Below are positions 57,160 to 64,000 of a stretch of DNA of 64,000 nucleotides, piece by piece. Numbering within the stretch: position 1 is the stretch's first letter; every line of letters begins with the position of its first letter. Under the pieces are notes generated by a model that searched no databases, had not been told where the DNA came from, and saw only the letters and a list, made by a program, of their open reading frames with translations. The stretch comes from a virus: the UHGV virus genome UHGV-0148165, one strand, 5' to 3'. A program made the translations under genes and the position numbers.

Positions 57160-57165
57160 GTTGAG

Positions 57166-57190
57166 GACTCCTTCGGGAGTCCTTTTTTAT
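57166..57190 (+). terminator. rho-independent terminator
   Basis: GGACTCC-TTCG-GGAGTCC then TTTTTT; same hairpin as at 3891. Confidence 0.85.
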
Positions 57191-57269: not shown

Positions 57270-57602
57270 ATGAAAACTATTAATCTGAACGCTACAGTTA
57301 AAACTAAATGTTTCAATGGTAAATATAATGAAACTATGTGGTTCTTAATGGCAGTTGAAGGTGATATTATTGAAGTAGAAACAACAGAAGGTATGGGAAC
57401 AGATTTCACCTTTACAATTCAAGTTCATAATTTCTTTACTGGTTGGATTTATGAATTGAATACAGTAATCGTTGGAAAAATTGAACAAAATGAATTAGGT
57501 GAATGGTATTATGTTACAGCTCGCCAACGTGCTGAACGCTTAATTGAGAAAATGAAAAAAGTTGGTAAACTTGACATGCAGCATTGGAAAGTAGTAAAAT
57601 AA
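57270..57602 (+). CDS. hypothetical protein (110 aa)
   Basis: ATG with AAGGAGAA SD. Confidence 0.5.
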   Translation: MKTINLNATVKTKCFNGKYNETMWFLMAVEGDIIEVETTEGMGTDFTFTIQVHNFFTGWIYELNTVIVGKIEQNELGEWYYVTARQRAERLIEKMKKVGKLDMQHWKVVK

Positions 57603-58077: not shown

Positions 58078-58365
58078 ATGTTTATGACTACTTATTTTGA
58101 TACTCGCAAAAATTTCTGTGAAGTGGTTTTCTCAAAGGCACCTAAAGACCTTCCTGCACATTTGCAACCTACTAGCGAATCGATTAAAAACTACGTTGAT
58201 GCGGTTTGTCCTTTAGAGTTTCGTACTGTAAATGGGCACGATACTTTAGCTATCACTAAACTCAATCGTGAAATTGACATTGACCCTTCAATTGCGCGCG
58301 AAATTAATATTTCTGATATTGGTGGCGGTAATGTTAAATCGCATGGTTTTCAGATGAGGTTCTAA
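58078..58365 (+). CDS. hypothetical protein (95 aa)
   Basis: ATG 58078 with GAGGAAAA SD; track ATG 58042 lies in the hairpin. Confidence 0.5.
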   Translation: MFMTTYFDTRKNFCEVVFSKAPKDLPAHLQPTSESIKNYVDAVCPLEFRTVNGHDTLAITKLNREIDIDPSIAREINISDIGGGNVKSHGFQMRF

Positions 58366-58562
58366 TGAAATTCTTTTTAGGTCAAACTGTTGAATTAAAG
58401 GGAGTTGGTATACCTGGATTAATTTCTAAGGTTTTACCTCCATTTAAATGGAGTGGTATTCAAATAAAAGAGGCTTATATTGTTTCCTGGGTAGATGGAA
58501 ATGAAGACCTTCGTATGGGTGATGAATTATCTCCTATCTACGGATTAAAGGAATTAGTATGA
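58365..58562 (+). CDS. hypothetical protein (65 aa)
   Basis: TAATG overlap with upstream stop. Confidence 0.5.
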   Translation: MKFFLGQTVELKGVGIPGLISKVLPPFKWSGIQIKEAYIVSWVDGNEDLRMGDELSPIYGLKELV

Positions 58563-58765
58563 ATATAATTAATAAGATTTTTGGAATTCAGTACATTAAG
58601 GTCACATATAAAGTAACAGATAAAAATCCATATACCGATGAACATGAAGAACCACAAATTGAGTCTATTATATTAGAAAAAGGCAGTGACTGGCCAGTTG
58701 AATTTCGTCTTCCTTGCTATGGTCATTGGGCTGATGTTGAAATTATAAGCATTGAAAATGTCTGA
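58559..58765 (+). CDS. hypothetical protein (68 aa)
   Basis: ATGA overlap with upstream ORF. Confidence 0.45.
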   Translation: MNIINKIFGIQYIKVTYKVTDKNPYTDEHEEPQIESIILEKGSDWPVEFRLPCYGHWADVEIISIENV

Positions 58766-59216
58766 GTTAGAGATTAGAAGCAATTTTAAGTGGCCATCAT
58801 GTGCATTAAGTAATTTCGCTCAATGGCCTTTCGTTATGGATGGTATTCAATTTGGAGGTCTAGAAGGATTCCTTCAAGGGTGCAAGGTGAAAAATGTTGA
58901 ACAACAACGTCGTATATTTGGGTTATCAGGGCTTGCCGCTCAACAAGCTGGAAGGTCTTATGCTAGAGCTCAGGACCGTGGGACCCTCTTCTGGCTTGGA
59001 GTTCCGTTTTCAAGATACTCCCCGGCGTGGAAAGAATTATACACAAATGCATATTTTGAAGCAGCGATCCAAAACAAGGGCTTTCGTGATGCATTACAAG
59101 CCTCGAAAGGAAAAGTTTTGAAGCACAGCATGGCTAGTGGTCTAACAAAAGATGATACAATACTAACCGAAGCTGAATTTATTGATGTGTTAAACCTATT
59201 AAGAGACTCTCTATGA
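58758..59216 (+). CDS. NADAR/YbiA-like (DUF1768) domain protein
   Basis: LSNFAQWPFVMDGIQFGGLEGFLQGCKV matches the YbiA/NADAR core as I recall it (FSNFA-WP-x-VDG...SEHYFQAQKF), and the C-terminal half aligns as well. Confidence 0.6.
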   Translation: MSELEIRSNFKWPSCALSNFAQWPFVMDGIQFGGLEGFLQGCKVKNVEQQRRIFGLSGLAAQQAGRSYARAQDRGTLFWLGVPFSRYSPAWKELYTNAYFEAAIQNKGFRDALQASKGKVLKHSMASGLTKDDTILTEAEFIDVLNLLRDSL

Positions 59217-60058
59217 AGCCTACTATTTTAACTGATATCGATGGAGTATGTTTAAGCTGGCAATCAGGCCTTCCTTATTTTGCTCAGAAATATAATCTTC
59301 CGTTGGAACATATTTTAAAAATGATCCAGGATGAAAAATTTATTTCACCTGGTAAACTTTTTAATTGTGATGAAGAACTTGGTGTCAAGTTAATTGAAAA
59401 ATACAATCGATCAGATTTTATTCGTTACTTGTCTCCATATAAAGATGCTCTGTGTGTAATTAACAAATTAAAAGAAGATTATAATTTTGTTGCTGTTACA
59501 GCATTGGGTGATTCTATTGATGCTCTGCTGAATCGTCAATTTAATTTGAATGCTCTTTTTCCTGGTGCCTTCTCAGAAGTACTGATGTGTGGTCATGATT
59601 CTTCAAAAGAAGAGTTGTTCAAAAAGGCAAAAGAGAAATATAACGTAATTTGTTATATTGACGATCTCGCTCACCACTGCGATCATGCGAGTGAAATATT
59701 AAATGTGCCTGTTTATTGGATGGCTCGAGGGGAGCGTGACAGTATTCCAAAAACTGCACAGCGTGTTTATACATGGAATGATGTAGAGAATAAGCTTTTT
59801 CCATTGAAGGAAAATAAAGAAAGTTTTGATAGTGAAAAAGCTATAAAAGATGTAATTGAGAAGATGATTAAAAACGATTCTTTTCGTTGGAACACTACCT
59901 GGAGAACTCCTGGATTTAATCCTTATAATCCATATTATCTATATCATCCATATCAGACGCATCCGTTTCAGACATGGAACTATATTAAACCCGGTGGCAT
60001 AGAGTATTTGTATAATAGACCTACTGGTGCTAATAATATTTTCCAAGGAGCATTCTAA
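59213..60058 (+). CDS. HAD-superfamily phosphatase-like protein (281 aa)
   Basis: HAD motif I ILTDIDGV and motif IV-like CYIDD; aromatic/Pro-rich C-terminal tail; ATGA overlap with NADAR-like ORF. Confidence 0.5.
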   Translation: MKPTILTDIDGVCLSWQSGLPYFAQKYNLPLEHILKMIQDEKFISPGKLFNCDEELGVKLIEKYNRSDFIRYLSPYKDALCVINKLKEDYNFVAVTALGDSIDALLNRQFNLNALFPGAFSEVLMCGHDSSKEELFKKAKEKYNVICYIDDLAHHCDHASEILNVPVYWMARGERDSIPKTAQRVYTWNDVENKLFPLKENKESFDSEKAIKDVIEKMIKNDSFRWNTTWRTPGFNPYNPYYLYHPYQTHPFQTWNYIKPGGIEYLYNRPTGANNIFQGAF

Positions 60059-60327
60059 TGTTTGTTGTTCACACTATTTATGAAAATGAAGGTAATACTA
60101 CACGTGATTACGGTCACGTAAATCAATTTTTTAGATGCAATCCAGAATTCCGAGCTCAAAAAGACGAACGAATTTTTAAAAAATGTGTAGAGCAAGGTTT
60201 CATTTACGTCAAGCATTGGATGCAAGGAAATAAAGTTAGAACCACGTACCACAGGTCTTTGCCTGAGCTTAATGATGAATTGATTTATAATAGAGCTGTA
60301 AACCAAACCTTGAAGGATGAGCAATGA
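60058..60327 (+). CDS. hypothetical protein (89 aa)
   Basis: TAATG overlap upstream; ATGA overlap with ligase start. Confidence 0.5.
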   Translation: MFVVHTIYENEGNTTRDYGHVNQFFRCNPEFRAQKDERIFKKCVEQGFIYVKHWMQGNKVRTTYHRSLPELNDELIYNRAVNQTLKDEQ

Positions 60328-61787
60328 TTCTTAAAATTCTGAATGAAATAGCATCTATTGGTTCAACTAAGCAGAAGCAAGCAATTCTTGAAAAGAATAA
60401 AGATAATGAATTGCTTAAACGGGTATATCGTCTGACTTATTCTCGCGGGTTACAGTATTATATCAAGAAATGGCCTAAACCTGGTATTGCTACCCAGAGT
60501 TTTGGAATGCTGACTATTACTGATATGCTTGACTTCATTGAATTCACGTTAGCTACTCGGAAATTGACTGGAAATGCGGCAATTGAGGAATTAACTGGAT
60601 ATATCACCGATGGTAAAAAAGATGATGTTGAAGTTTTGCGTCGGGTGATGATGCGAGACCTTGAATGTGGTGCTTCAGTATCTATTGCAAACAAAGTTTG
60701 GCCAGGTTTAATTCCTGAACAACCTCAAATGCTCGCAAGTTCTTATGATGAAAAAGGCATTAATAAGAATATCAAATTTCCAGCCTTTGCCCAGTTAAAA
60801 GCTGATGGAGCTCGGTGTTTTGCTGAAGTTAGAGGTGATGAATTAGATGATGTTCGTCTTTTATCACGAGCTGGTAATGAATATCTAGGATTAGATCTTC
60901 TTAAAGAAGAGTTAATCAAAATGACCGCAGAAGCCCGCCAGATTCATCCAGAAGGTGTGTTAATTGATGGCGAATTGGTATACCATGAGCAAGTTAAAAA
61001 GGAGCCAGAAGGCCTAGATTTTCTTTTTGATGCTTATCCTGAAAACAGTAAAGCTAAAGAATTCGCCGAAGTAGCTGAATCACGTACTGCATCTAATGGC
61101 ATCGCCAATAAATCTTTAAAGGGAACCATTTCTGAAAAAGAAGCACAATGCATGAAGTTTCAGGTCTGGGATTATGTCCCGTTGGTAGAAATATACGGTC
61201 TTCCTGCATTTCGTTTGAAATATGATGTACGTTTTTCTAAACTAGAACAAATGACATCAGGCTATGATAAAGTAATTTTAATTGAAAACCAGGTAGTAAA
61301 TAACCTAGACGAAGCCAAGGTAATTTATAAAAAGTATATTGACCAAGGTCTTGAAGGTATTATTCTCAAAAATATCGATGGATTATGGGAAAATGCTCGT
61401 TCAAAAAATCTCTATAAATTTAAAGAAGTAATTGATGTTGATTTAAAAATTGTAGGAATTTATCCTCACCGTAAAGACCCTACTAAAGCAGGTGGATTTA
61501 TTCTTGAGTCAGAGTGTGGAAAAATTAAAGTAAATGCTGGTTCAGGCTTAAAAGATAAAGCCGGTGTAAAATCGCATGAACTTGACCGTACTCGCATTAT
61601 GGAAAACCAAAATTATTATATTGGAAAAATTCTAGAGTGCGAATGCAACGGTTGGTTAAAATCTGATGGCCGCACTGATTACGTTAAATTATTTCTTCCG
61701 ATTGCGATTCGTTTGCGTGAAGATAAAACTAAAGCTAATACATTCGAGGATGTATTTGGTGATTTTCATGAGGTAACTGGTTTATGA
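60324..61787 (+). CDS. 30: ATP-dependent DNA ligase (gp30)
   Basis: 487 aa, same as T4 ligase; starts MILKILNEIASIGSTKQKQ; adenylation motif KADG (LKADGARCF). Confidence 0.95.
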   Translation: MILKILNEIASIGSTKQKQAILEKNKDNELLKRVYRLTYSRGLQYYIKKWPKPGIATQSFGMLTITDMLDFIEFTLATRKLTGNAAIEELTGYITDGKKDDVEVLRRVMMRDLECGASVSIANKVWPGLIPEQPQMLASSYDEKGINKNIKFPAFAQLKADGARCFAEVRGDELDDVRLLSRAGNEYLGLDLLKEELIKMTAEARQIHPEGVLIDGELVYHEQVKKEPEGLDFLFDAYPENSKAKEFAEVAESRTASNGIANKSLKGTISEKEAQCMKFQVWDYVPLVEIYGLPAFRLKYDVRFSKLEQMTSGYDKVILIENQVVNNLDEAKVIYKKYIDQGLEGIILKNIDGLWENARSKNLYKFKEVIDVDLKIVGIYPHRKDPTKAGGFILESECGKIKVNAGSGLKDKAGVKSHELDRTRIMENQNYYIGKILECECNGWLKSDGRTDYVKLFLPIAIRLREDKTKANTFEDVFGDFHEVTGL

Positions 61788-61972
61788 AAGCTTACTTAGA
61801 AACAATTGTCATTGCTCAAAAAGAAGGTGGAGATGTTTCTACTTCTGTATCACAAGTCATTCTCGAATTTGTAGATGCATACGCTTATAATAAATTCACA
61901 GAAACATTTGATGCCTATGAAAAAGGTCCAAAGTTTGAAATATACCGTACTCTCTTACCACTAGATTATTAA
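61784..61972 (+). CDS. hypothetical protein (62 aa)
   Basis: ATGA overlap with ligase stop; terminator follows. Confidence 0.5.
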   Translation: MKAYLETIVIAQKEGGDVSTSVSQVILEFVDAYAYNKFTETFDAYEKGPKFEIYRTLLPLDY

Positions 61973-62024: not shown

Positions 62025-64000
62025 ATGGAACTTATTACAGAATTATTTGACGAAGATACTACTCTTCCGATTACAAACTTAAATCCAAAGAAGAAAATAC
62101 CGCAAATTTTTTCAGTTCATGTTGATGATGCAATTGAACAACCAGGCTTTCGTTTATGTACCTATACATCTGGAGGTGATACTAATCGCGATTTAAAGAT
62201 GGGCGATAAAATGATGCATATTGTTCCTTTTACATTAACTGCTAAAGGTTCAATTGCTAAATTAAAAGGTCTTGGTCCAAGCCCAATTAATTATATCAAT
62301 TCAGTTTTTACTGTTGCGATGCAAACAATGCGTCAGTATAAAATTGATGCCTGTATGCTTCGTATTCTTAAGTCTAAAACCGCTGGTCAAGCTCGACAAA
62401 TTCAAGTTATTGCTGATAGACTTATCCGTAGTCGTTCAGGTGGCAGATACGTCCTTCTTAAGGAACTCTGGGATTACGACAAAAAGTATGCATATATTCT
62501 TATACATCGCAAAAATGTATCATTAGAAGACATTCCAGGAGTTCCGGAAATTAGTACCGAGCTCTTTACTAAAGTTGAATCGAAAGTCGGCGATGTTTAT
62601 ATCAATAAAGATACTGGAGCTCAAGTAACTAAAAATGAGGCAATTGCAGCATCTATTGCGCAAGAAAATGATAAACGTTCTGACCAAGCTGTAATCGTTA
62701 AAGTTAAAATTTCCCGTAGAGCAATTGCACAAAGTCAGTCATTGGAATCTTCTAGATTTGAAAGTGAATTATTCCAGAAGTATGAATCTACCGCAGCTAA
62801 TTTCAATAAACCTGCTACCGCTCCTTTAATTCCCGAAGCAGAAGAAATGAAGCTTGGAATTAATTCATTAGCTTCTAAAACTAAGGCAGCAAAAATTATT
62901 GCCGAAGGAACTGCGAATGAACTTCACTATGACTATAAATTCTTTTCAAAAAGTGAGGTTGATGAAGTTTCCGAAAAAATTAAAGATGTAATTTTTAACG
63001 CGATAAAAAATGAGCCAACTACTTCAATAAAATGTTTAGAGAAATACGCAGCAGCTGTTAATAAATTCTTTGAAGAATATAAAGATAATTGGCTTGATAA
63101 ACATAATAAAACTCGTAAAGGGCAACCAGATGAAGTCTGGGGAGAAATAACTAAAAATGCCTGGAATGCAGCAAAAACTAAATTCCTCAAACGAATGATT
63201 TATAGCTTTTCTGGAATTGGTGCTGGTCCAATGATTGATATTACCATTGCACGTGATGGTTCTAAATATACTCCATCACAAAAGCGTGGCATTAGAGAAT
63301 ATTGCGGCTCAGGATATACAGACATTAATAATCTTCTTTTAGGTCGTTACAATCCAGAACGATATGATGTAATGAGTGAAAAAGAAATTGAATCTGCTAT
63401 AAATAATTTAGATTCAGCCTTTGAAAATGGTGACCGCATACCGGAAGGCATTACAGTTTATCGTGCTCAAAGTATGACTGCTCCTATATACGAAGCGCTA
63501 GTTAAAAATAAAGTGTTCTATTTCAGAAATTTTGTATCTACTTCTTTAACTCCTATCATTTTTGGGCGTTTTGGAATTACACATGCTGGTATTGGTCTTT
63601 TAGAACCAGAAGCTCGTAATGAATTAACAGTTGATAAAAATGAAGAAGGAATAACTATTAATCCAAACGAAATAAGAGCGTATAAAGAAAATCCTGAATA
63701 CGTTAAAGTTCAAATAGGATGGGCAATTGACGGCGCGCATAAAGTTAATGTTGTATATCCAGGAAGTCTCGGAATAGCAACAGAAGCTGAAGTTATTCTA
63801 CCGCGCGGATTGATGGTCAAAGTTAATAAAATAACTGATGCTTCTAATAATGACGGAACAACATCTAATAATACAAAACTCATTCAAGCTGAAGTTATGA
63901 CCACAGAAGAACTCACCGAATCAGTAATCTATGACGGAGACCATTTAATGGAAACCGGCGAAGTAGTTACAATGACAGGTGATATTGAAATAGAAGACAA
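62025..64000 (+). CDS. alt: ADP-ribosyltransferase Alt (5' portion; runs off the window end)
   Basis: Own translation MELITELFDEDTTLPITNL... has no stop to 64000 (absent from the ORF track for that reason); ART signature R (YRAQSM), S-T-S (VSTSLT), E-x-E (EAEVILP); AGAGAGG SD. Confidence 0.8.
   Translation, partial: MELITELFDEDTTLPITNLNPKKKIPQIFSVHVDDAIEQPGFRLCTYTSGGDTNRDLKMGDKMMHIVPFTLTAKGSIAKLKGLGPSPINYINSVFTVAMQTMRQYKIDACMLRILKSKTAGQARQIQVIADRLIRSRSGGRYVLLKELWDYDKKYAYILIHRKNVSLEDIPGVPEISTELFTKVESKVGDVYINKDTGAQVTKNEAIAASIAQENDKRSDQAVIVKVKISRRAIAQSQSLESSRFESELFQKYESTAANFNKPATAPLIPEAEEMKLGINSLASKTKAAKIIAEGTANELHYDYKFFSKSEVDEVSEKIKDVIFNAIKNEPTTSIKCLEKYAAAVNKFFEEYKDNWLDKHNKTRKGQPDEVWGEITKNAWNAAKTKFLKRMIYSFSGIGAGPMIDITIARDGSKYTPSQKRGIREYCGSGYTDINNLLLGRYNPERYDVMSEKEIESAINNLDSAFENGDRIPEGITVYRAQSMTAPIYEALVKNKVFYFRNFVSTSLTPIIFGRFGITHAGIGLLEPEARNELTVDKNEEGITINPNEIRAYKENPEYVKVQIGWAIDGAHKVNVVYPGSLGIATEAEVILPRGLMVKVNKITDASNNDGTTSNNTKLIQAEVMTTEELTESVIYDGDHLMETGEVVTMTGDIEIED

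What the first reader, a model, noticed from the sequence alone, without database searches (positions are those of the whole stretch)
58758..60058. NADAR/YbiA-like ORF coupled to a HAD-like phosphatase upstream of DNA ligase
Seen in sequence: the 152-aa ORF contains LSNFAQWPFVMDGIQFGGLEGFLQGCKV and a C-terminal half that both align with the YbiA/NADAR core as I recall it. It overlaps by ATGA a 281-aa ORF with HAD motifs (ILTDIDGV, CYIDD) and an aromatic/Pro-rich tail. Established knowledge: NADAR proteins include enzymes that remove ADP-ribose from guanine bases, reversing DarT-type DNA ADP-ribosylation. Inference: this pair is a candidate counter-defence or DNA/nucleotide repair module, and it sits near the phage's own ADP-ribosyltransferase alt.
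Basis: partly seen in the sequence, partly recalled or inferred. Interest (0 to 1): 0.55.

Follow-up and report, generated by a model that had tools for sequence, protein, structure and literature searches.

The report
Known anti-DarT NADAR plus neighbouring phosphatase
The first gene is the T4-type phage enzyme AdfN, already shown by experiment to strip ADP-ribose off phage DNA and defeat the bacterial DarTG1 defence. The gene overlapping it is a real but uncharacterised HAD phosphatase that keeps company with DNA ligase and is not needed for that counter-defence.

Summary
The window comes from a T4-like phage (Tequatrovirus). The ORF at 58758-59216 is gene 30.3 (adfN). It is 150/152 identical to T4 AdfN, has the NADAR fold and keeps catalytic E36, K43 and H123. 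Published work already shows that AdfN is a guanine-specific DNA ADP-ribosylglycohydrolase, necessary and sufficient to defeat DarTG1.

The ORF at 59213-60058 is gene 30.2. It is a genuine C1-capped HAD phosphatase with all four motifs, closest to 5'(3')-deoxyribonucleotidases, and carries a disordered aromatic/Pro-rich tail.

The idea that the two genes form a module is not supported:
- Eight of nine consecutive junctions in this early cluster overlap by 1-8 nt, so the ATGA overlap is ordinary.
- In 9 of 26 related genomes that carry both genes, they lie 54-86 kb apart.
- The HAD gene stays beside DNA ligase in 75 of 80 loci.
- In a published T4 transposon screen on DarTG1, 30.3 is lost (log2FC -7.25) while 30.2 is unaffected (-0.12, p 0.61).

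The function of gp30.2 remains open. A nucleoside-monophosphate phosphatase is the most likely reading.

The parts
58758..59216 (+). Gene 30.3 = adfN, a 152-aa NADAR DNA ADP-ribosylglycohydrolase. Catalytic E36 is at 58863-58865, K43 at 58884-58886 and the phage-type last-strand H123 at 59124-59126. The C-terminal helix (residues 138-151) is intact.
   Evidence: Pfam PF08010, E=3.5e-70. 150/152 identical to T4 gp30.3. E36, K43 and H123 are invariant in 41 homologues. AF2 model pLDDT 94. The top three PDB fold hits are the three NADAR structures 2B3W, 8BAU and 8BAT. The family profile hits YbiA at E=1e-3. Function is published for the T4 orthologue (PMC11825919).
59213..60058 (+). Gene 30.2, a 281-aa HAD-superfamily phosphatase. 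The catalytic core with a C1 helical cap spans residues 1-195 (59213-59797). D8 and D10 are at 59234-59242, T96 at 59498-59500, K132 at 59606-59608 and D150/D151 at 59660-59665. Residues 196-281 form a variable, mostly disordered aromatic/Pro-rich tail that ends in a GIEYLYNRPTG motif.
58559..58765 (+). Gene 30.4, 68 aa, function unknown. Its stop codon overlaps the adfN start by 8 nt.
   Evidence: PHROG 2042, E=6e-34. 64/68 identical to T4 gp30.4. Apart from 30.3 it is the only T4 gene significantly depleted on DarTG1 in HIDEN-SEQ (log2FC -1.79, Padj 0.014).
58894..59121 (+). Internal out-of-frame ORF 30.3' (75 aa) inside adfN.
   Evidence: Listed. Annotated in T4 as 30.3', 'internal translation in a different reading frame'. 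Not tested here.
60058..60327 (+). Gene 30.1, an 89-aa DUF3045 protein.
   Evidence: Pfam PF11243, E=1.6e-63. 88/89 identical to T4 gp30.1.
60324..61787 (+). Gene 30, ATP-dependent DNA ligase (487 aa). It is the most constant neighbour of the HAD gene.
   Evidence: 486/487 identical to T4 ligase. A ligase gene lies adjacent to the gp30.2 homologue in 75 of 80 viral loci.
61784..61972 (+). Gene alt.1, a 62-aa hypothetical protein.
   Evidence: 57/62 identical to T4 Alt.1.
62025..64000 (+). Gene alt, the ADP-ribosyltransferase packaged in the virion. The first 658 codons lie in the window and the ORF runs off its end.
   Evidence: Open frame starting MELITELF.... The T4 gene order is identical.
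57571..57600 (+). Sigma-70-type promoter-like site (TTGACA-18-TAAAAT, 11/12) upstream of 30.7. It is a candidate early promoter for the whole 30.7-to-alt.1 cluster.
   Evidence: Consensus scan only. No strong + strand terminator-like site was found between it and 62200; the only one is a weak 5-pair hairpin at 58325-58342. Not evidence of function by itself.

Best explanation
These are two separate early genes of a Tequatrovirus that happen to abut in a tightly packed co-directional cluster.

(1) Gene 30.3 is adfN. Its product is a stand-alone NADAR glycohydrolase that removes ADP-ribose from guanine bases. The host DarT1 toxin puts that modification on phage DNA, so removing it restores replication and defeats the DarTG1 defence. 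This is shown for the T4 protein, which differs at only 2 of 152 residues. For the window protein it is inferred from that near-identity and from intact E36, K43, H123 and the C-terminal helix.

(2) Gene 30.2 encodes a Mg2+-dependent HAD phosphomonoesterase. Its proposed chemistry is:
- D8 is the phospho-aspartyl nucleophile and D10 the general acid/base.
- T96 and K132 bind the phosphate.
- D150 and D151 hold the metal.
- A four-helix C1 cap closes over a small substrate.

Its nearest relatives are the NT5C 5'(3')-deoxyribonucleotidases. Three invariant or near-invariant cap aromatics (W16, F43, Y64) align with the base-binding aromatics of cytosolic deoxyribonucleotidase. The most likely activity is therefore dephosphorylation of (deoxy)nucleoside monophosphates. 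This substrate assignment is inferred, not shown.

gp30.2 is evolutionarily tied to the DNA ligase gene, is dispensable in the laboratory, and is not part of the anti-DarTG1 mechanism.
For: AdfN:
- Pfam Phage_30_3, E=3.5e-70.
- 150/152 identity to T4 gp30.3.
- E36, K43 and H123 invariant.
- Confident model whose only significant PDB fold matches are YbiA, PnNADAR and Geobacter lovleyi DarG1-NADAR.
- Family profile hit to YbiA across the SNFA...E...K core.
- Published genetics and biochemistry for T4: deletion sensitises T4 and T2 to DarTG1; ectopic expression rescues RB69; purified protein removes ADP-ribose from DNA; E36A and K43A impair it (PMC11825919).
- In vitro guanine-ADPr hydrolysis, with no thymine-ADPr activity (PMC11125620).
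- An independent transposon screen.

gp30.2:
- All four HAD motifs conserved across 39 homologues.
- pLDDT above 90 for the core, with a helical insert (residues 16-65) between motifs I and II.
- The profile's only near-significant PDB sequence hit is mouse cdN 2JAO. In that alignment W16, F43 and Y64 align with F20, F46 and Y67.
- NT5C is hit in 5/39 members, and the distant member P0349 passes the NT5C gathering score.

Independence of the two genes:
- Overlaps at eight of the nine junctions in the cluster.
- Only 20 of 80 NADAR loci have the HAD gene within 5 kb.
- 37 of 80 HAD loci have the NADAR gene nearby, against 75 of 80 with ligase.
- 9 of 26 genomes carrying both have them 54-86 kb apart.
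- T4 30.2 insertions are neutral on DarTG1 (log2FC -0.12, p 0.61), in M9 medium (-0.10, p 0.61) and in LB (72/72 TA sites hit).
Against: - No assay exists for this exact allele, which differs from T4 AdfN by K11R and M124I.
- Neither Pfam NADAR (PF08719) nor any HAD model reaches E<=1 on the window proteins themselves. NCBIfam and PADLOC give nothing.
- The roles of the cdN aromatic residues are recalled from the literature, not checked here.
- The NADAR-HAD adjacency does recur in quite divergent T4-like phages, including one 46%-identity locus with a direct overlap. A weak functional link cannot be excluded.
- The transposon data are a single screen with one DarTG1 system in one host.
- AdfN of T4 is reported to need an unidentified T-even factor for full activity.
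Confidence: 0.82

Rival explanations
1. The NADAR and the HAD phosphatase are a translationally coupled two-enzyme module. The HAD enzyme either processes the released ADP-ribose or its phosphate derivatives, or is the unidentified T-even factor that AdfN needs for full activity.
For: The genes overlap by ATGA. The two genes lie within 2 kb in 17 of 26 genomes that carry both, including divergent T4-like phages. AdfN-T4 works fully only during T-even infection, so some phage co-factor is postulated.
Against: In the genome-wide T4 transposon screen on DarTG1 only 30.3 and 30.4 are depleted; 30.2, with 71 TA sites, is unchanged. In 9 of 26 genomes the genes are 54-86 kb apart. Many NADAR-carrying contigs have no HAD gene within 5 kb, and HAD-ligase pairs occur without a NADAR. 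Overlapping stop/start codons are the rule in this cluster.
Confidence: 0.06
2. gp30.2 is a DNA-end-healing 3'-phosphatase. Like the phosphatase domain of T4 polynucleotide kinase, it would prepare nicks for the adjacent DNA ligase.
For: Adjacency to the ligase gene in 75 of 80 loci, kept even where the gene order is inverted (L154, L157-L161, L162). There is a weak hit to the PHROG for polynucleotide kinase (E=0.0044, residues 74-163).
Against: The model has a four-helix C1 cap (residues 16-65) between motifs I and II. From general knowledge of the HAD superfamily, such a cap restricts substrates to small molecules, whereas PNKP-type DNA 3'-phosphatases are capless. The best sequence and fold relatives are nucleotidases and small-molecule phosphatases. 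The same genomes already encode PseT/PNKP. 30.2 is fully dispensable while ligase is essential.
Confidence: 0.08
3. gp30.2 is a counter-defence or pool-management enzyme. It would destroy a phosphorylated small molecule that is not a normal nucleotide, such as an immune signalling nucleotide or a toxic nucleotide analogue. Its phenotype would therefore appear only on hosts carrying the matching defence.
For: It sits in an early-gene cluster rich in host-interaction genes (adfN, alt). It is dispensable under every condition read here: LB, M9, DarTG1 and one further comparison sheet (Data S3, condition not identified here). The family is large and seen here mostly on phage contigs: 1398 clusters at 50% identity.
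Against: No direct evidence. The family is conserved and syntenic with ligase across Straboviridae, which is more typical of a housekeeping accessory than of a fast-evolving anti-defence gene. There is no PADLOC or anti-defence family hit.
Confidence: 0.1

Closest known systems
T4 AdfN (gp30.3), anti-DarT factor NADAR (Johannesman et al. 2025, PMC11825919)
   Same: Orthologue. 150/152 residues identical, same length, same position between 30.4 and 30.2, same catalytic E36 and K43, same phage-type His in the last strand, and an intact C-terminal helix.
   Different: Two conservative substitutions (K11R, M124I). No experiment has been done on this allele.
DarG1 / BC4488-type NADAR antitoxins (Geobacter lovleyi NADAR, 8BAT) and E. 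coli YbiA (2B3W)
   Same: Same YbiA/NADAR fold (Foldseek TM 0.61-0.68). Same SNFA...E...K catalytic core. Guanine-ADPr hydrolysis has been shown for all of them in vitro.
   Different: Only 16-18% identity. The last-strand catalytic residue is His rather than Asp (DarG1) or Glu (YbiA). It lacks the N-terminal extension of DarG1 and has no DarT partner. The T4 enzyme cannot replace DarG1 in uninfected cells.
NT5C family 5'(3')-deoxyribonucleotidases (cdN 2JAO/2I7D, mdN 1MH9, Staphylococcus 3BWV)
   Same: HAD core plus C1 cap. Shared DxDGV..[FW].SGL motif I region. The cap residues W16, F43 and Y64 align with cdN F20, F46 and Y67 in mouse numbering. These are the best-covered fold matches.
   Different: 16-20% identity. 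The window protein does not reach the Pfam NT5C threshold. It carries an extra 86-residue disordered tail. Its substrate is untested.
T4 PseT (polynucleotide kinase/3'-phosphatase) HAD domain
   Same: A HAD phosphatase encoded by the same kind of phage and functionally linked to ligases. There is a weak PHROG 415 hit.
   Different: PseT's phosphatase domain is of the capless PNKP type and is fused to a kinase (Pfam HAD_PNKP + AAA_33). gp30.2 is stand-alone and capped.

Membership tests
NADAR superfamily (YbiA fold) | [quoted passage not shown] | tested here: met
   AF2 model with pLDDT 94.4 and pTM 0.89. The only PDB fold matches with probability >=0.99 are YbiA 2B3W (E=4.4e-5, TM 0.68), PnNADAR 8BAU and G. 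lovleyi NADAR 8BAT.
NADAR superfamily (YbiA fold) | Conserved catalytic Glu and Lys in the E-x6-K core that contact ADP-ribose (E36 and K43 in T4 numbering). | tested here: met
   E36 and K43 are present by direct reading and invariant in 41 homologues. They align with the E and K of YbiA.
NADAR superfamily (YbiA fold) | [quoted passage not shown] | tested here: met
   H123 is invariant and lies next to strand 120-122 of the model. This places the protein in the phage gp30.3 subtype as defined in PMC11125620.
NADAR superfamily (YbiA fold) | Match to the Pfam NADAR model PF08719 (DUF1768). | tested here: inconclusive
   No hit at E<=1 for the window protein. One homologue (P0083) carries both PF08010 and PF08719. 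This is a limit of that one model's sensitivity, not a missing family feature.
AdfN / Phage_30_3 (PF08010) | Match above the curated Pfam threshold, and orthology to T4 gp30.3. | tested here: met
   234.6 bits against a cut-off of 36. 150/152 identical and syntenic with T4 30.3.
AdfN / Phage_30_3 (PF08010) | Full-length protein with the C-terminal helix, which is lost in the DarTG1-sensitive RB69 allele. | tested here: met
   152 aa ending ...LNLLRDSL, identical to T4. The model has a helix at 138-151.
AdfN / Phage_30_3 (PF08010) | Removes ADP-ribose from guanine in DNA and confers resistance to DarTG1. | not testable with these tools
   Shown for the T4 protein in vitro and in vivo (PMC11825919, PMC11125620, HIDEN-SEQ). 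Inferred here from 99% identity.
HAD superfamily phosphatases | The four catalytic motifs: I DxD, II S/T, III K/R, IV DD or DxxxD. | tested here: met
   D8, D10, G11 and K132 are invariant. T96, D150 and D151 are conserved in at least 90% of 39 homologues.
HAD superfamily phosphatases | Rossmannoid HAD core fold. | tested here: met
HAD superfamily phosphatases | Second Asp at nucleophile+2, which marks phosphatases and mutases as opposed to dehalogenases. | tested here: met
   D10 is invariant. The meaning of this position comes from general knowledge of the superfamily.
HAD superfamily phosphatases | Match to the Pfam HAD models (PF00702, PF13419) above threshold. | tested here: inconclusive
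   No hit for the window protein. There are weak sub-threshold hits in 10/39 and 6/39 family members.
NT5C 5'(3')-deoxyribonucleotidase family (PF06941) | Sequence membership above the Pfam gathering score. | tested here: not met
   No hit for the window protein. 5/39 members hit weakly. One distant member, P0349, passes at 25.5 against 24.8 bits. I therefore describe gp30.2 as NT5C-like, not as a member.
NT5C 5'(3')-deoxyribonucleotidase family (PF06941) | Aromatic cap residues that stack on the base (human cdN F18, F44, Y65). | tested here: met
   W16, F43 and Y64 align with mouse cdN F20, F46 and Y67 in the profile alignment and are invariant or near-invariant. The role of these residues is recalled, not verified here.
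NT5C 5'(3')-deoxyribonucleotidase family (PF06941) | dNMP phosphatase activity. | not testable with these tools
   No biochemical report on gp30.2 was found.
PNKP-type DNA 3'-phosphatase | Capless (C0) HAD domain that admits a DNA end. | tested here: not met
   The model has a four-helix cap (H16-26, H32-40, H46-49, H54-65) between motifs I and II.
DarTG toxin-antitoxin system | A NADAR or macrodomain antitoxin encoded next to a DarT ADP-ribosyltransferase toxin. | tested here: not met
   The neighbours are 30.4 and 30.2, and there is no PADLOC hit. This is an orphan antitoxin-like gene, as published. alt, 2.8 kb downstream, is annotated in T4 as a protein (RNA polymerase) ADP-ribosyltransferase, not a DarT.

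The most novel reading that the evidence does not exclude
gp30.2 belongs to a large family of NT5C-like phosphatases (about 1400 clusters at 50% identity), seen here mostly on phage contigs. The family travels with the phage DNA ligase gene even when the local gene order is rearranged. In many members a short conserved C-terminal peptide (G-I-E-Y-L-x-x-Q/R-P-T) sits at the end of a disordered tail. The reading not excluded is that this is an undescribed ligase- or replisome-associated nucleotide phosphatase, with a repair or counter-defence role that appears only on hosts not yet tested.

A second, narrower possibility concerns the 68-aa gp30.4, whose gene overlaps adfN. It is the only other DarTG1-conditional hit, and it, rather than gp30.2, could be the missing T-even factor that potentiates AdfN.
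Probability: 0.12. Interest if true: 0.5.

Novelty: already known. Interest (0 to 1): 0.15.

Why it matters
It serves as a check on the scan. A reader working from sequence alone correctly recognised a NADAR counter-defence enzyme, but the recognition adds nothing to what was published in 2024-2025 for T4 gp30.3/AdfN.

What remains useful:
- A clear negative: the overlapping HAD gene is not part of the anti-DarTG1 mechanism.
- A documented fold and active-site assignment for gp30.2, which is still annotated 'hypothetical protein' in T4 and most relatives.
- The observation that this phosphatase is linked to DNA ligase far more constantly than to the NADAR gene. That points to where its function should be sought.

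Tried and rejected
- Direct phmmer of both proteins against PDB sequences gave only chance hits.
- Pfam on the two window proteins gave no NADAR or HAD model hit. NCBIfam and PADLOC gave nothing.
- Literature searches for gp30.2, or for a HAD or deoxyribonucleotidase enzyme in T4-like phages, found no characterisation.
- Multi-domain members of the gp30.2 family (P0256, P0315, P0209, P0247) were scanned for informative fusion partners. No Pfam domain was found in the extra regions.
- I considered gp30.2 as the unknown T-even factor that AdfN needs. I rejected it as the leading idea because 30.2 insertions are neutral on DarTG1 and the two genes are unlinked in many genomes.
- I considered a DNA 3'-phosphatase role with ligase. 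I rank it low because of the C1 cap.
- I considered the tail motif GIEYLY as a sliding-clamp-binding peptide, by analogy with the LDFLF-type motifs I recall for T4 gp43, gp33 and gp55. It is only a resemblance and was not testable here.
- One supplement look-up missed the rows I wanted. The DarTG2, CBASS, RexAB, RnlAB and clinical-isolate sheets were not read for 30.2.
Full report
**What is in the window**

The region belongs to a T4-like phage. A 1.9-kb query around the finding matches 659 phage records, the best at 97-98% identity (RB27, T6 and many Escherichia, Shigella and Yersinia Tequatroviruses). Gene order is identical to T4: 30.7, 30.6, 30.5, 30.4, 30.3, 30.2, 30.1, 30 (DNA ligase), alt.1, alt.

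- 58758..59216 (152 aa from the ATG) is gene 30.3.
- 59213..60058 (281 aa) is gene 30.2.
- They overlap by ATGA.
- The quoted peptides are present.
- The tail of the second protein is indeed aromatic and Pro rich: 27% F/W/Y and 12% P in the last 60 residues.
- alt begins at 62025 and runs off the window end.

**The 152-aa protein is AdfN**

- It matches Pfam Phage_30_3 (PF08010) at E=3.5e-70.
- It is 150/152 identical to T4 gp30.3, differing by K11R and M124I.
- In an alignment of 41 homologues reaching down to 35% identity, E36, K43 and H123 are invariant.
- An AlphaFold model (pLDDT 94) has as its only convincing PDB fold matches the three solved NADARs: YbiA 2B3W, Phytophthora NADAR 8BAU and Geobacter lovleyi DarG1-type NADAR 8BAT.

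The function is published.
- Johannesman et al. 2025 renamed T4 30.3 adfN. Deleting it makes T4 and T2 unable to plaque on DarTG1 hosts. Expressing it rescues RB69, whose own allele is truncated by 15 residues. The purified protein removes ADP-ribose from DNA, and E36A and K43A impair it.
- Schuller-lab work showed in vitro hydrolysis of guanine-ADPr but not thymine-ADPr by the phage NADAR. It defined the phage subtype by a His in the last strand.
- An independent T4 transposon screen found 30.3 insertions completely lost on DarTG1.

The window allele is full length with the C-terminal helix.

**The 281-aa protein is a HAD phosphatase**

Neither Pfam nor NCBIfam names it, and the T4 record calls it hypothetical. 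The evidence for a HAD phosphatase is as follows.
- Across 39 homologues, D8, D10, G11 and K132 are invariant, and T96 and D150-D151 are nearly so. These are HAD motifs I to IV, including the Asp+2 typical of phosphatases.
- The model is confident for residues 1-195. It shows a four-helix insert between motifs I and II, which is a C1 cap. Residues 196-281 are disordered apart from one helix.
- The closest family by sequence is NT5C:
  - The profile's one near-significant PDB hit is mouse cytosolic 5'(3')-deoxyribonucleotidase (E=0.015).
  - In that alignment the motif I region DGV..[FW].SGL matches, and gp30.2 W16, F43 and Y64 align with cdN F20, F46 and Y67. These are the aromatic residues I recall as forming the base pocket.
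  - Five of 39 members hit NT5C weakly, and a distant member passes its threshold.
- The family is large, with 1398 clusters at 50% identity. Most members are about 200 aa and lack the tail.
- The tail is variable, but 11 of 39 homologues end with a G-I-E-Y-L-x-x-Q/R-P-T peptide.

I conclude that gp30.2 is a small-molecule phosphomonoesterase. Its most likely substrate is a nucleoside monophosphate, but that is inference.

**Are the two genes a module?**

Four lines of evidence say no.
1. The ATGA overlap is unremarkable. Eight of the nine junctions from 30.7 to alt.1 overlap by 1-8 nt; only 30.7/30.6 has a 6-nt gap. The cluster has one good promoter-like site upstream of 30.7 and no strong + strand terminator-like site inside it.
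2. Of 80 viral loci with a gp30.3-type NADAR, only 20 have a gp30.2 homologue within 5 kb.
3. Of 80 gp30.2 loci, 75 have DNA ligase adjacent, some in inverted order, while 37 have the NADAR nearby. Among 26 contigs found by both searches, 17 have the genes within 2 kb and 9 have them 54-86 kb apart. HAD-ligase pairs occur without any NADAR.
4. In the HIDEN-SEQ data for T4 on a DarTG1 host, only two genes are significant: 30.3 (log2FC -7.25) and 30.4 (-1.79, Padj 0.014). Gene 30.2, with 71 TA sites, is unchanged (-0.12, p 0.61), as are 30.1 and alt. Gene 30.2 is also neutral in LB (72/72 sites hit) and in M9.

So gp30.2 is not required for AdfN's job. It is a poor candidate for the unidentified T-even factor that AdfN reportedly needs.

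**What remains open**

- The substrate and biological role of gp30.2, and why it is so constantly linked to ligase.
- Whether the depletion of 30.4 insertions on DarTG1 is polarity on the overlapping adfN start or a real contribution.

**Verdict**

The 'pair' idea is not supported. Interest is low.

Noticed in passing
window 58559-58765 (gene 30.4): In the published T4 transposon screen on DarTG1, 30.4 is the only gene besides 30.3 that is significantly depleted (log2FC -1.79, Padj 0.014). It is neutral in M9 (-0.05). Its stop codon overlaps the adfN start by 8 nt, so polarity through translational coupling is the simple explanation. Alternatively, the 68-aa protein could be the unidentified T-even factor that potentiates AdfN.
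   Followed up: partly
window 58894-59121 (+), inside adfN: A 75-aa ORF in another frame lies within gene 30.3. It corresponds to T4's annotated 30.3' ('internal translation in a different reading frame'). Its conservation and expression were not examined.
   Followed up: no
window 59996-60028 (gp30.2 residues 262-272) and about 61014 (ligase residues about 231-237): The gp30.2 tail carries GIEYLYNRPTG, a peptide conserved near the C-terminus in 11 of 39 homologues. The ligase has an internal GLDFLFD. Both resemble the LDFL[FY]-type sliding-clamp-binding peptides I recall from T4 gp43, gp33 and gp55. This is only a resemblance.
   Followed up: partly
window about 59950-59960 (gp30.2 tail): Relative to T4 gp30.2 (278 aa), this phage has a 3-residue insertion (YYL) and several substitutions, nearly all in the disordered tail. 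The catalytic core differs at only three residues (G127S, N164R, S177N).
   Followed up: yes
L028, L032, L045, L046, L052, L063, L065, L071, L081 versus L145, L121, L160, L096, L157, L115, L102, L107, L133: In nine T4-like genomes the gp30.3-type NADAR gene lies 54-86 kb from the gp30.2-ligase pair. The NADAR gene has therefore moved, or been acquired separately, while the HAD gene kept its place. What surrounds the relocated NADAR genes was not examined.
   Followed up: partly
L154, L157-L159, L161, L162: In the most divergent relatives the order is ligase then HAD, sometimes with one or two small ORFs between. No other T4 30.x neighbours were detectable. This suggests the HAD-ligase linkage is more than inherited synteny.
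   Followed up: partly
proteins P0256 (591 aa), P0315 (660 aa), P0209 (430 aa), P0247 (365 aa): A few members of the gp30.2 family are fused to large extra regions with no Pfam match. By eye, P0256 has a GDLDIIIE-type motif and P0247 a GRHR motif in the extra part. These could hint at partner activities.
   Followed up: partly
literature: PMC11125620, methods: The in vitro study lists its construct as 'E. coli T4 phage NADAR (gp30.3; residues 1-208)', whereas T4 gp30.3 is 152 aa in NC_000866. Either tag residues were counted or a longer homologue was used. The in vitro evidence in PMC11825919 is the safer citation for the 152-aa protein.
   Followed up: no
window 57163-57184 (+) and 57571-57600 (+): A strong terminator-like hairpin (9 bp stem, 5 G-C pairs, T-run) follows the 30.9-like ORF. 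A near-consensus sigma-70 promoter-like site precedes 30.7. Together they probably delimit the transcription unit that contains adfN, 30.2 and ligase.
   Followed up: no
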